Assembly (NCBI RefSeq): GCF_009914755.1
Contig: NC_060925.1
Direction: 5' to 3' (one strand)
DNA length: 64,000 nt
Origin: the human T2T-CHM13v2.0 reference genome, Homo sapiens
Part shown: in pieces, positions 13,913 to 18,166 of the stretch
How positions within the stretch are numbered: the first letter of the stretch is position 1
Layout: each line of letters opens with the position of its first letter
Position numbers and translations under genes: made by a program
The notes under the pieces: model-generated
Databases searched by the model: none
What the model was told of the DNA's origin: nothing
The model's input: the letters and a program-made list of their open reading frames with translations, nothing else

Positions 13913-14231
13913 ACCTGATCCACAGGACATTGTCCTCATCACTACAACCAGATAAATATCCTTATTCTTTTTTTTTTTTTTTCGTCAGTAGAGGTTTTAC
14001 TACTTGACTCAAGTAAGGAGGCCATGGGGAGTATTCTCCAAAGCAGTGTCTCTCTGAGGCAAAGTGACAGGAGGGTTTTCTGAGGCCATGGAGAGGGGAG
14101 AGGGTGCGTCACCACATGTAGAGGAGGGAGTTTCAGTGGCACACATGCACTGAGCCGTTCTGCCAGTATAAGGTCTCATGAGATGGTCATGAGCTATAGC
14201 TCCTCCCTGAGTGGAGATTTTAGCATCGTCA

Positions 14232-14704
14232 TGTCAGGGGCCTTTGAACAAGCACAACTCCCATCTTGAAGGGGGGCTGGGTAAAATGAGGCTGAGACCC
14301 ACTGGGCTGAATTTCCAGGAGGTTAGGTATTTTAAGTCATAGGAGGTCCGCACAGATACAAGTCATAGAGACCTTGCTGATAAAACAGGTTGTGGTTAAA
14401 GAAGGCGGCCGAATCCCACCAAAACCAAGATGGTTTTGACAAGTGACATCTGGTTGATGCGAGTAACATCTGGTTGTCCTCACTGCTGATTATACACTAA
14501 TTATAATACATTAGCATGCTAAAGGACACTCCCAGGACCACCATGACACTTTACAGATGCCATGGCAATGTCAGGAAGTTACCCTATATGGTCTAAAAAG
14601 GAGAGGAACCCTCAGTTCTGGGAATTCCTCCCCCTTCCTTGGAAAACTCATGAGTAATCCTCCCCTTGTTTACCATATAATCAAGAAATAACTATAAGTA
14701 TCCA
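14232..14704 (+). mobile_element. MER41 LTR fragment (3' truncated) inside the retrocopy 3'UTR
   Basis: TGTCAGGGGCCTTTGAAC...CCATCTTGAA...GGCTGGGTAAAATGAGGCTGAGACC matches the MER41A/B 5' end. GAS motif TTCTGGGAA at 14616-14624. Confidence 0.82.
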
Positions 14705-15394
<690 letters not shown>

Positions 15395-15811
15395 TCAAGT
15401 TGATTGGATTCCTGTAATCCCGGGAGACTCTACCTGTCTGCCTACAGAGATTTGAACTCGCTTAGATAAGCAGCTGGCTGCACCCACAGTTCACAAGGAA
15501 AACTCACATTCAGAAGGCAAAACACATTCCCAAGCTTGGGCTGAAATGGAGCCCCAGAGCAGATCCAGCCCCATTGCCAAGGCAGGGACGTGTAAGAATT
15601 TAACTCTGGGAAGTTAACATGCCCACCTCTCCCTCACAGTGTGGAAATACCCCCTCCTTCAAGACTTCAAGACTTTCATTTTCATCTGAAAGGGTCTCTC
15701 ACCCACAGAGTCAACTTAAGGTTCTGACATATGAACACTGTCAAATTCATAAACCTTTCTCCAGGAGGCAATCCAAACAAGTCTTTGTCTAAGCACAAAC
15801 TTCACAGACTT

Positions 15812-16122
15812 TATATATATATATTTTTTTAGAAACGGGGTCCTGCTCTGTCACCCAGGCTGGAGTGCAGTGGCAGGATCATAGTTCACTATAGTCTTGA
15901 ATTCCTAGGCCCAAGCGATCCCCTGGCCCCAGCTTCCTGAGCAGCTGGGACCACAGGCACCCACCACCACACCACACCTGGCTAATTTGTTTGCATTCCT
16001 TCAGAGACAAGGGGTCTTGCCATGTTGCCCAGGCTGGGCTCAAACTCCCGGGCTCAAGTGATCCTCCCACCTCAGCTTCCCAAAGTGCTGGGATTACAGG
16101 TGTGAGCCACCACACCCAAGCC
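15812..16122 (-). mobile_element. AluJ-like element
   Basis: Antisense Alu with flanking CACAGA(C/T)TTT repeats. Confidence 0.93.
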
Positions 16123-16209
16123 ACAGATTTTCTTAAGGGATATGAAGACTGTTCTTCACGGTGCTGCATGTTATATATTCTGTAAAAAGACATGTAAAAC
16201 ACGTATCTA

Positions 16210-16514
16210 GTCCGGGCATGATGGCTCATGCCTGCAATCCCAGCATCTCTGGAAGCAGAGGCGCGCAGACCACATGAGGCCAGGAGTCTGAGACCAGCCC
16301 AACCAACATGGTGAAACCCCATCTCTACTAAAAATACAAAAATTAGCTGGGCATGGTGGTGCACACCTGTAATCTCAGCCACTTGGGAGGCCGAGGAAGG
16401 AGAATCACCTGAACTCAGGAGGCAGAAGTTTCAGTGAGCCAAGTTCATGCCACTGCACTCCAGCCTGGGGGACAAAGCGAGATTCCATCTCAAAAATAAT
16501 AATAATAATAAATA
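16210..16514 (+). mobile_element. Alu (S-type), inverted partner of 15812-16122
   Basis: Dimeric Alu with an (AAT)n tail. Confidence 0.93.
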
Positions 16515-16625
16515 GAGTAATTGTTAAAATTGAAAACGTTCCTGTATTTTCCAGACTACTAACATTTCCATCCAGTGTGCATTCTTCAATTTACATCGTC
16601 CATCTCCACAATACCCAGCCTTCTT

Positions 16626-16706
16626 ATGTTGCCCAGGCTGGTCTCAAACTCCTGGGCTCAGGTGATCCCCCTGCCTCAGCCTCCAAAAGCACTGTCTGCG
16701 CCTGGC
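16626..16706 (-). mobile_element. Alu fragment supplying the end of the ZNF101-type CDS
   Basis: Minus strand AGCCAGGCGCAG..CAGTGCTTTTGGAGGCTGAGGCAGGGGGATCACCTGAGCCCAGGAGTTTGA. Confidence 0.8.
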
Positions 16707-16731
16707 TAAATGAGTTTTTTTCATGTTGTCA

Positions 16732-16872
<141 letters not shown>

Positions 16873-17662
16873 TCAACTATGAGTTTTTTCATGTCTTCGA
16901 AAACAACTGGGATAATTGAAGGTTTTACCACGTTTATTACATTCATAAGGTCTCTCTCCAGCATGAGCTCTTTCATGTGCTTGAAGGGACATGGGACATC
17001 TAAGACTTGGTCACATTTTTGACGTTCATAGAGTTTTCCTCCACTATGGGTCCTTTCATGTCTGCGAAGGGAACTGGAACGACTGAGTTTCTTCCCACAT
17101 TCCTGACATTGGTGGGATTTCTCCAGCGTGAGTTCTGATTTCATGTGTCTGAACGTAAGTTGTACCACATTCTTTACATTTGTGAGGTTTTTCTCCAGGA
17201 TGACATGAATTTGAAATAAAGTGGGATAATCAAAAGGTTCTCCACAGTATTTACATTCATAGCGGTTTTCTCCAGTGTGCATTTTTCCATGTTTTCGAAA
17301 GTAACTGGAAATAGTAAAGGCTCTCATGATTTTCCTACATTTATAGGCCGTCTCTCCAGTGCGAGTTCTTTCATGAATTTGAAATAAATTGGGAGAATTA
17401 AGGGCTTTCCCGCACACCCTGCATTCATAAGGTTTCTTTTGAGTTGGTGTTACTGTGCGCCTTGGACCACTATTGGGGGAAATGGAGGCTTTCCCACATT
17501 GTTTCTGTTTACAGGGCTTCTCTCCCCATTCCCCATCACACTGGTAGCGTTTCTGTCTGGCGTGAGCTCTCATGTCCCTGTCCAGGAATGAATGACAGAG
17601 GAAGACTTTCCCACACACGCTGCATTTGCATGGTTTTACCCCAGTATGACTTTTCTTCTTCA

Positions 17663-18166
<504 letters not shown>

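What the first reader, a model, noticed from the sequence alone, without database searches (positions are those of the whole stretch)
15812..16514. Possible fossilised ADAR A-to-I hyper-editing in the inverted Alu pair of the ZNF101 retrocopy
Seen: two head-to-head Alus about 88 nt apart in the retrocopy 3'UTR. Against Alu consensus recalled from memory, both show many plus-strand T>C changes (A>G on the mRNA strand) although they face opposite ways. Sites in the minus Alu: 15843, 15911, 15922, 15929, 15942, 15952, 15994, 15998, 15999, 16002, 16049. Sites in the plus Alu: 16235, 16270, 16288, 16300, 16380, 16392, 16409. Reciprocal A>G changes are rare, and the neighbouring tandem Alus (14705-15301) show no such excess. 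Many sites lie in UAG/UAC/CAG/AAG contexts; some lie in less favoured GAG/GAU. Known: close inverted Alus form dsRNA edited by ADAR, and reverse transcriptase reads inosine as G. Inference: the DNA records the editing state of one ancient germline ZNF101 mRNA molecule.
Basis: partly seen in the sequence, partly recalled or inferred. Interest (0 to 1): 0.85.

Follow-up and report, generated by a model that had tools for sequence, protein, structure and literature searches.

The report
ADAR editing fossil in ZNF101 retrocopy
Two back-to-back inverted Alu repeats inside an old processed copy of a ZNF101-like mRNA carry about twenty A-to-G changes, all on the mRNA strand, which is best read as RNA editing of one ancient transcript frozen into DNA when it was reverse-transcribed.

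Summary
I compared both Alus with subfamily consensus sequences built from 225 full-length Alus of the same genome, leaving out CpG columns.

- **Strand bias:** the minus Alu (15821-16117) has 10 plus-strand T>C and 0 A>G changes. The plus Alu (16213-16503) also has 10 and 0.
- **Controls:** in 223 control Alus neither class exceeds 5 and their difference never exceeds 4.
- **Locality:** the two tandem Alus next door, 14 other Alus in the window, the retrocopy's coding part and the adjacent 89-nt UTR piece show no such bias.
- **Structure:** on the mRNA strand the pair folds into a roughly 300-bp duplex, and all 20 sites are paired.
- **Retrocopy:** it is spliced, ends in poly(A) and is flanked by a 17-nt target-site duplication. 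It spans 13969-18009, three times the annotated ZNF101P2.

ADAR editing of the template mRNA, fixed by LINE-1 (L1) reverse transcription, is the best explanation (about 0.85).

Two caveats remain. Human ZNF101 no longer carries this distal 3'UTR, so no direct comparison with the parent is possible. The usual lack of G before edited sites is also not seen.

The mechanism has been reported for new insertions in cultured cells (PMC11702581). This would be an old germline example.

The parts
13953..13969 (.). Left copy of the 17-nt target-site duplication TAAATATCCTTATTCTT
   Evidence: Longest exact match between the two flanks, 13953 and 18010; sequence read.
13969..13983 (-). Poly(A) tail of the retrocopy (a T run on the plus strand)
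   Evidence: Sequence; it directly abuts the left TSD.
13969..18009 (-). Full processed retrocopy of a ZNF101-like mRNA, about 4.04 kb. RefSeq annotates only 16618-17995 as ZNF101P2.
   Evidence: Three parental exons are joined without introns: chr19:19806346-19806478, 19815374-19815500 and 19816692 onward. The last coding exon is 88% identical to the parent. Poly(A) and TSD bound the whole stretch.
15821..16117 (-). AluJ-type element, sense in the mRNA; 3' arm of the duplex. Inferred edited sites (plus-strand C, consensus T): 15843, 15911, 15922, 15929, 15942, 15952, 15994, 15998, 16002, 16049, and possibly 15999.
   Evidence: Profile hit; placed in cluster 3. 10 A>G and 0 T>C in Alu sense, out of 55 non-CpG consensus A.
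16118..16212 (-). Spacer between the two Alu 5' ends; forms the loop of the hairpin
   Evidence: No homologue in the ZNF101 region. The genome search of the whole pair gave only Alu matches. The one locus that bridged the spacer (chr14) has an unrelated spacer.
16213..16503 (+). AluS-type element, antisense in the mRNA; 5' arm of the duplex. Inferred edited sites (plus-strand C, consensus T): 16235, 16247, 16249, 16270, 16280, 16288, 16300, 16380, 16392, 16409.
   Evidence: Profile hit; placed in cluster 2. 10 T>C and 0 A>G in Alu sense, out of 43 non-CpG consensus T. The consensus base is T in 103-121 of the 122 cluster members at these columns.
16520..16608 (-). Last 3'UTR stretch that still matches human ZNF101 (85% over 89 nt)
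   Evidence: Parent-to-retro A>G 2, T>C 2, so no bias.
14712..15298 (+). Two tandem Alus, antisense in the mRNA; internal controls without the signature
   Evidence: Plus-strand T>C 0-1 and A>G 0-2 for the first, 0 and 0 for the second.
18010..18026 (.). Right copy of the target-site duplication

Best explanation
A ZNF101-like mRNA, transcribed in the sense of the window's minus strand, carried two inverted Alus about 95 nt apart in its 3'UTR. The first was an antisense AluS and the second a sense AluJ. The two Alus paired into a roughly 300-bp RNA duplex.

An ADAR enzyme deaminated about one adenosine in five on both arms of that one molecule. LINE-1 ORF2p then reverse-transcribed the polyadenylated mRNA at a nicked target site. 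It read each inosine as G, and the copy became fixed in the germline.

The DNA therefore shows G on the mRNA strand (C on the plus strand) where both Alu subfamilies have A.

Shown here:
- the retrocopy's architecture;
- the strand-specific excess and its restriction to the Alu pair;
- the predicted duplex.

Inferred:
- that ADAR was the enzyme;
- that the changes were made on RNA before reverse transcription;
- that the source gene was ZNF101 itself rather than a lost close copy of it.
For: 1. Strand bias. Plus-strand T>C vs A>G at non-CpG columns is 10 vs 0 in the minus Alu and 10 vs 0 in the plus Alu. In Alu orientation these are opposite classes (A>G and T>C). On the mRNA strand they are the same class.
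2. Controls. In 223 of 223 control Alus the maximum of either class is 5 and the maximum difference is 4. Poisson P(>=10) is about 4e-6 and 9e-6.
3. Robustness. The bias holds against all five reference consensus sequences, and under the strict filter it is 11 vs 0 and 8 vs 0.
4. Confinement.
- Tandem Alus 520 nt away: at most 1 vs 2.
- 14 other window Alus summed: 19 vs 17.
- Retro-lineage changes in 1119 nt of coding sequence, polarised with the chr10 copy: A>G 10 vs T>C 7, against 20 in about 98 adenosines in the pair.
- Adjacent 89-nt UTR: 2 vs 2.
5. Duplex. Region 15812-16514 on the minus strand folds at -393.9 kcal/mol, z = -21 against 20 shuffles. All 20 sites are paired: 17 as G.U and 3 as G-C. 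Among the other 151 G of the two Alus, 26 pair with U. Restoring A at the sites gives -396.7 kcal/mol with 19 of 20 paired to U.
6. Other classes are unremarkable. Plus-strand C>T and G>A are 7 and 3 in one Alu and 4 and 6 in the other, so there is no APOBEC-type bias.
7. Neighbour preference. U or A precedes 12 of 20 sites, or 13 if 15999 is counted as an edited A. It precedes 32 of 109 unedited adenosines. Fisher P = 0.004 for the 13-of-20 version.
8. Retrocopy hallmarks. Introns of 8.9 kb and 1.2 kb are removed, there is a poly(A) tail, and a 17-nt TSD encloses the Alu pair.
9. Precedent. 3 of 235 new pseudogene insertions in L1-expressing cells had clustered T>C changes restricted to inverted Alus of the 3'UTR, which the authors attributed to ADAR (PMC11702581, passages read).
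Against: - **No parental sequence to compare.** Homology to human ZNF101 ends at about 16520. The spacer, 15300-15812, 14230-14704 and 13984-14230 find nothing in 210 kb around ZNF101. They have no close copy elsewhere in the genome, though only 40 candidates were scored per search. The ancestral state at each site is therefore inferred from subfamily consensus, not observed.
- **The 5' G depletion typical of ADAR is absent.** G precedes 6 of 20 sites, against 36 of 109 unedited adenosines. The 3' G enrichment, 10 of 20 vs 41 of 109, is not significant.
- **Some calls are weak or background.** From the control means, about 2-3 of the 20 changes are expected to be ordinary later transitions. 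Four calls rest on weaker consensus columns: 120, 127 and 163 in the 30-member AluJ cluster, and 71 in AluS.
- **The tandem Alus are unedited.** They are also inverted relative to the AluJ. This needs an extra assumption: that the nearest partner wins, or that they inserted after retroposition.
- **No other primate genome was available.** The age of the insertion and whether the G's are shared are untested.
Confidence: 0.85

Rival explanations
1. The editing fossil is real, but the template was not the canonical ZNF101 mRNA. The distal 2.5 kb, including the Alu pair, would come from a since-lost ZNF101 duplicate, from an alternative or read-through 3' end later deleted from the parent, or from a second RNA joined by template switching during reverse transcription.
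For: Homology to human ZNF101 stops at about 16520. At that point the parent has a different Alu in the opposite orientation. Nothing distal is found within 210 kb of ZNF101 or elsewhere in the genome. The retrocopy also lacks about 1 kb that the parent has between the stop region and the last shared stretch.
Against: There is no internal poly(A) run at the point where homology ends, as a template-switch chimera would usually show. Part of the distal UTR (15445-15823) has its only weak relatives, 65-74% identical, in the chr19p13.2 zinc-finger cluster. That fits a zinc-finger gene UTR. The KRAB exon is 96% identical to ZNF101. This rival changes the name of the source, not the editing mechanism.
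Confidence: 0.2
2. A DNA-level, strand-asymmetric clustered mutation process made the changes after or during integration. Candidates are error-prone repair synthesis with a bias towards A>G after A or T, or transcription-coupled asymmetry from read-through of the minus-strand gene UCHL5.
For: U or A on the 5' side in 12-13 of 20 sites, with no G depletion, would also fit a polymerase with a WA-type preference (recalled knowledge). UCHL5 lies upstream on the same strand (annotation supplied with the finding).
Against: No strand bias appears in 14 other window Alus (19 vs 17), in the tandem Alus 520 nt away, or in the coding part and adjacent UTR of the same retrocopy. Twenty one-strand changes within 567 bp (15843-16409), all scored inside the two arms of a predicted duplex, is what dsRNA-specific editing predicts. 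Whether the 95-nt spacer is free of such changes could not be tested.
Confidence: 0.05
3. Chance decay together with unrecognised subfamily-specific bases: the G's were already present in the source Alus.
For: Consensus inference from 30 AluJ and 122 AluS copies is imperfect, and a few columns are polymorphic.
Against: None of 223 control Alus comes near the bias. It survives every choice of consensus and the filter requiring at least 85% agreement. No genomic Alu is more than 85% identical to the plus Alu or more than 78% to the minus Alu among the 40 scored of 13,849 candidates, so no subfamily sharing these bases is seen. Two unrelated Alus would have to show the same mRNA-strand class by coincidence.
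Confidence: 0.01
4. The two Alus inserted into the retrocopy after it had integrated, so the pattern has nothing to do with the mRNA.
For: They are absent from the present human parent.
Against: Alu RNA editing before insertion could only give A>G in Alu sense. The plus Alu shows T>C in Alu sense, 10 vs 0, and this scenario offers no source for that. The sequences on both sides of the pair are also missing from the parent, so the parent's lack of the Alus reflects loss of the whole segment rather than later insertion.
Confidence: 0.02

Closest known systems
ADAR-type T>C clusters in new L1-mediated processed-pseudogene insertions in cultured human cells (PMC11702581, bioRxiv 2024; passages read)
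   Same: A processed pseudogene, an inverted Alu pair in the 3'UTR, clustered changes of one class restricted to those Alus, and attribution to A-to-I editing read as G by the L1 reverse transcriptase.
   Different: Those are somatic insertions a few days old, in an L1 over-expression system, compared directly with the known source gene. This one is fixed in the germline and carries about 5% later divergence. Its source segment no longer exists in the human genome, so the ancestral state is inferred from Alu consensus.
A-to-I editing of inverted Alu pairs in human 3'UTRs (Athanasiadis 2004, Kim 2004, Levanon 2004; known to me from recall and from the reference lists seen)
   Same: The substrate geometry is the same: a close inverted Alu pair forming a long duplex. 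Both arms are edited, and many sites are edited per molecule.
   Different: That editing is seen in RNA or cDNA and leaves the genome untouched. Here the pattern is in genomic DNA.
APOBEC3 G-to-A DNA editing footprints in genomic retroelements (PMC4866542; methods passage read)
   Same: A deaminase signature frozen into the genome through retrotransposition, detected as clustered, one-directional, strand-biased mismatches against a consensus.
   Different: A different enzyme, substrate and step: C deamination on first-strand cDNA, giving G>A. That class shows no excess here.
Nuclear copies of plant mitochondrial genes that resemble the edited mRNA (recalled; no paper read here)
   Same: Genomic DNA that records the edited state of an RNA intermediate, used as evidence that the transfer went through RNA.
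   Different: C-to-U organelle editing at specific functional sites, not promiscuous dsRNA editing of repeats.

Membership tests
L1-mediated processed retrocopy | Parental introns are absent | tested here: met
   Three chr19 exons, separated in the parent by 8.9 kb and 1.2 kb, are contiguous in the window.
L1-mediated processed retrocopy | A 3' poly(A) tail and a flanking target-site duplication | tested here: met
   A 15-nt A run on the minus strand at 13969-13983, and a 17-nt exact duplication at 13953 and 18010.
ADAR editing footprint captured by retroposition | The repeat pair forms a long dsRNA on the transcript strand | tested here: met
   MFE -393.9 kcal/mol, z = -21, a near-continuous duplex of about 300 bp. 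This is a prediction, not an experiment.
ADAR editing footprint captured by retroposition | An A>G excess on the transcript strand only, in both arms whatever the repeat orientation | tested here: met
   20 vs 0; 223 controls reach a maximum of 5; robust to the choice of consensus.
ADAR editing footprint captured by retroposition | The excess is restricted to the double-stranded part | tested here: inconclusive
   Absent from the coding part, the adjacent UTR, the tandem Alus and the other window Alus. The spacer and 15300-15812 could not be scored because no parental or consensus sequence exists for them.
ADAR editing footprint captured by retroposition | ADAR neighbour preference: G depleted on the 5' side and enriched on the 3' side (preference as recalled) | tested here: inconclusive
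   5' U or A is enriched: 12-13 of 20 vs 32 of 109, P = 0.004 for the 13-of-20 version. 5' G is not depleted: 6 of 20 vs 36 of 109. 3' G is 10 of 20 vs 41 of 109, not significant.
ADAR editing footprint captured by retroposition | The source gene has A where the retrocopy has G | not testable with these tools
   The segment is missing from human ZNF101 and from the rest of the human genome. No other primate genome is held.
APOBEC3 DNA-editing footprint | Clustered G>A on the element's sense strand | tested here: not met
   mRNA-strand G>A vs C>T is 7 vs 3 and 4 vs 6, within the control range.

The most novel reading that the evidence does not exclude
This retrocopy would be a natural, germline-fixed snapshot of one hyper-edited mRNA molecule from an early anthropoid germ cell or embryo, tens of millions of years old. 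It would also be the only surviving copy of an ancestral ZNF101 3'UTR that the human gene has since lost.

If so, it shows that heavily inosine-containing inverted-Alu mRNAs reached the L1 machinery in the germline. It would also mean that retrocopies with inverted repeats can be mined as a record of past editing.

Six literature searches found no report of such a germline example. They found only the cell-culture cases.
Probability: 0.6. Interest if true: 0.7.

Novelty: new member of a known kind. Interest (0 to 1): 0.6.

Why it matters
RNA editing normally leaves no trace in the genome. A retrocopy that froze the edited state of one transcript gives direct evidence on several points:

- ADAR acted on inverted-Alu 3'UTRs in the primate germline soon after the Alu expansion.
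- A molecule edited at about one adenosine in five was still polyadenylated and available to L1 ORF2p.
- Editing followed by retroposition is a real, if rare, source of clustered point changes in genomic DNA.

It also suggests a cheap genome-wide test. Retrocopies whose 3'UTRs hold inverted repeats can be compared with their parents for A>G bias on one strand, giving a sample of ancient editing. For annotation, ZNF101P2 is three times longer than listed.

Tried and rejected
- **Direct parent comparison.** The retrocopy aligns to human ZNF101 only down to about 16520. A sensitive BLAST of the five non-Alu UTR segments against 210 kb around ZNF101 found only the 89-nt proximal piece.
- **Whole-genome searches.** Searches with 15300-15810, 13980-14700 and the Alu pair found no source copy. 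Each scored only 40 candidates.
- **The one locus that bridged the spacer.** The chr14 hit proved to be an unrelated head-to-head Alu pair with a non-homologous spacer.
- **Paralogue test of the distal UTR.** I asked whether the distal UTR lies beside a zinc-finger exon in a chr19p13.2 paralogue. One 5-kb stretch showed the 65.6% match but no zinc-finger coding sequence within it, so the result is uninformative.
- **Clustering method.** Average-linkage clustering of the Alus failed to separate subfamilies. K-means on 100 informative columns was used instead.
- **Rejected explanations.**
  - APOBEC-type bias: no excess of G>A.
  - GC-biased gene conversion: it would affect both strands, and 20 vs 0 excludes it.
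  - Hairpin-templated correction in DNA: it would increase complementarity between the arms, whereas these changes turn A-U pairs into G.U.
  - Regional transcription-coupled asymmetry: other window Alus give 19 vs 17.
- **Not available here:** catalogues of known editing sites such as REDIportal, and other primate genomes.

Full report
**What is at the locus.**
The window's minus strand carries a processed retrocopy of a ZNF101-like mRNA.
- Three exons of the chr19 gene are joined without their 8.9-kb and 1.2-kb introns: 19806346-19806478, 19815374-19815500, and 19816692 onward.
- The last coding exon is 88% identical to the parent and the KRAB exon 96%.
- A 15-nt A run lies at 13969-13983, read on the minus strand. 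An exact 17-nt duplication, TAAATATCCTTATTCTT, lies at 13953 and 18010. Together they bound a 4.04-kb insert.
- RefSeq's ZNF101P2 (16618-17995) covers only the part that still aligns to the parent's coding region.

Read 5' to 3' on the mRNA, the 3'UTR holds these elements:
- an old Alu fragment;
- an 89-nt unique stretch (16520-16608);
- an antisense AluS (16213-16503);
- a spacer of about 95 nt;
- a sense AluJ (15821-16117);
- about 510 nt of non-Alu sequence (partly an interspersed repeat, see the observations noted in passing);
- two antisense Alus in tandem (14712-15298);
- an LTR-like repeat (14230-14704);
- about 250 nt of unique sequence, then the tail.

**Checking the observation.**
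I did not use a recalled Alu consensus. I collected 319 Alu matches with a profile built from the data: the window, 210 kb around ZNF101, and 15 other loci. I kept the 225 that cover at least 255 profile positions and aligned them to the profile. K-means on 100 informative columns split them into four clusters of 34, 39, 122 and 30 members, which look like an AluS variant, AluY, AluS and AluJ. The names are my reading of the consensus sequences.

I excluded 57 columns that are CpG in any cluster consensus. Against its own cluster, each Alu then shows the following:
- **Minus Alu:** 24 substitutions in 220 columns, of which 10 are A>G in Alu sense and none T>C.
- **Plus Alu:** 25 substitutions, of which 10 are T>C in Alu sense and none A>G.

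On the plus strand both sets are T>C. On the mRNA strand both are A>G, 20 against 0.

Site 15999 falls in an indel-rich linker that was not scored. Three further sites appear in the plus Alu.

**Is it more than chance?**
- Among all 225 Alus only these two have a difference of 10 between the two classes.
- The other 223 reach at most 4, and at most 5 of either class.
- Summed over all 225, A>G and T>C are equal (309 and 310).
- With cluster means of 1.48 and 1.64, the Poisson tails for 10 or more are about 4e-6 and 9e-6.
- Against any of the five consensus sequences the minus Alu keeps 10-15 A>G against 0-4 T>C. The plus Alu keeps 9-11 T>C against 0-1 A>G.
- Using only columns where at least 85% of all 225 Alus agree, the counts are 11 vs 0 and 8 vs 0.

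**Is it local?**
- The tandem Alus 520 nt away give 0-1 and 0-2, and 0 and 0.
- Fourteen other full-length Alus in the window sum to 19 plus-strand T>C and 17 A>G, so there is no regional strand bias.
- In 1119 aligned nt of the coding part, changes were assigned to the retrocopy lineage using an older chr10 copy as outgroup. They include 10 A>G and 7 T>C out of 60.
- The adjacent 89-nt UTR stretch has 2 and 2.

The rate in the Alu pair is 20 of about 98 non-CpG adenosines.

**Structure.**
- The 703-nt mRNA-sense stretch folds into one long hairpin of the two Alus: -393.9 kcal/mol, against a mean of -237 for 20 shuffles, z = -21.
- All 20 sites are paired, 17 of them as G.U and 3 as G-C. Of the 151 other G in the two Alus, 113 pair with C, 26 with U and 12 are unpaired.
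- Setting the 20 sites back to A gives -396.7 kcal/mol with 19 of 20 paired to U.
- Changing 20 random other G to A gives -319.5 +/- 9.9 kcal/mol.

The changes therefore turned A-U pairs into wobble pairs. Editing does this. A DNA hairpin-correction process would not. The pairing result is partly implied by the consensus inference, so it is not fully independent evidence.

**Sequence context.**
- On the 5' side there is U at 7 of 20 sites, A at 5, C at 2 and G at 6.
- For the 109 unedited adenosines of the two Alus the counts are 12, 20, 41 and 36.
- G follows 10 of 20 sites, against 41 of 109.
- U or A before the site is enriched. Fisher P = 0.004 when 15999 is counted as an edited A, giving 13 of 20.
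- The depletion of G before the site that I recall as the strongest ADAR preference is not seen.

I count this as inconclusive and as the main internal point against the ADAR reading. Long, near-perfect duplexes are edited with weak selectivity (recalled).

**The parent.**
- The retrocopy matches ZNF101 down to about 16520.
- Beyond that point the parent has a different Alu, in the opposite orientation, and unrelated sequence.
- None of the four distal non-Alu segments is found within chr19:19654000-19863999.
- Genome searches find no close copy of them or of the Alu pair. Each search scored 40 candidates: of 63, 3411 and 13,849.
- The only relatives of 15445-15823 are 65-74% matches in the chr19p13.2 zinc-finger cluster.

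I read this as loss of the ancestral distal UTR from the human gene, or as origin from a lost close duplicate. The poly(A) tail and TSD that enclose the whole insert, and the editing pattern itself, argue that the pair was in the template RNA. An Alu inserted later as DNA cannot acquire a bias that follows the host transcript's strand against its own orientation.

**Mechanism and rivals.**
The best explanation is ADAR editing of one mRNA molecule, followed by L1 target-primed reverse transcription that reads inosine as G (confidence 0.85). The rivals are:
- The same mechanism on a template that was not the canonical ZNF101 mRNA (0.2). This overlaps the main reading.
- A DNA-level, one-strand clustered process (0.05). 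The locality tests speak against it, but the unscorable spacer means it is not excluded.
- Chance or hidden subfamily bases (0.01).
- Later Alu insertion (0.02).

**What is known.**
A 2024 preprint on L1-induced rearrangements reports that 3 of 235 new pseudogene insertions in L1-expressing cells carried clustered T>C changes restricted to inverted Alus in the 3'UTR. The authors attribute this to ADAR (PMC11702581; passages read; its supplementary figure S8 was not seen).

A 2016 review states that roles for ADAR editing in Alu evolution had not been determined (PMC4982230; passage read). A study of ADAR1 and L1 found no editing in more than 2.5 kb of L1 RNA (PMC5224506; passage read).

Six full-text searches turned up no report of a germline-fixed example in a reference genome. 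Subscription journals are largely outside that library, so an earlier report cannot be excluded.

**Age.**
Sixty of 1119 coding-part positions (5.4%) changed on the retrocopy lineage. By recalled primate substitution rates this suggests some tens of millions of years. This is an inference and was not tested against other genomes.

**Verdict.**
It is a new, old and natural member of a kind recently seen in cell culture. The interest is moderate to high for people working on RNA editing and retrotransposition.

Noticed in passing
window 13969-18009 vs annotated 16618-17995: The RefSeq span of ZNF101P2 covers about one third of the retrocopy. Poly(A) and a 17-nt target-site duplication put the true ends at 13969 and 18009.
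   Followed up: yes
L021 3836-4876 (chr19:19817835-19818875) vs window 16608-16618: The parent has about 1 kb that the retrocopy lacks. It consists of an Alu dimer flanked by its own direct repeat AAGAAGGCCCCATATC, the rest of an older Alu, and about 240 nt that looks like decayed zinc-finger repeats. Some of it was inserted into the parent later. The rest was either deleted from the retrocopy or spliced out of the template.
   Followed up: partly
window 15445-15823: The only relatives of this non-Alu UTR stretch are 65-74% matches at several places in chr19:12.28-12.68 Mb, the zinc-finger cluster. The one locus inspected had no zinc-finger exon within 5 kb.
   Followed up: partly
window 15300-15448 and 14230-14704: Two further interspersed repeats lie inside the UTR. 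One is a roughly 145-nt element with many 75-83% copies. The other is a roughly 470-nt LTR-like element with at least 39 copies at 76-80%. Neither family was named here.
   Followed up: no
L011/L012 (chr10:28370428-28372123): A second, older ZNF101-like copy on chr10, 78-82% identical to the retrocopy. It was used only as an outgroup.
   Followed up: partly
window 15843-16409: The inferred edits are staggered between the arms. On the 5' arm (antisense Alu) 7 of 10 lie in the half near the loop. On the 3' arm (sense Alu) 9 of 10 lie in the half away from the loop. Whether this reflects how ADAR binds the duplex was not examined.
   Followed up: no
L021 3845-9848 (downstream of the ZNF101 stop codon): The present human ZNF101 downstream region holds many Alus in both orientations. 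The modern transcript may therefore be an editing substrate through different Alus. This was not tested.
   Followed up: no
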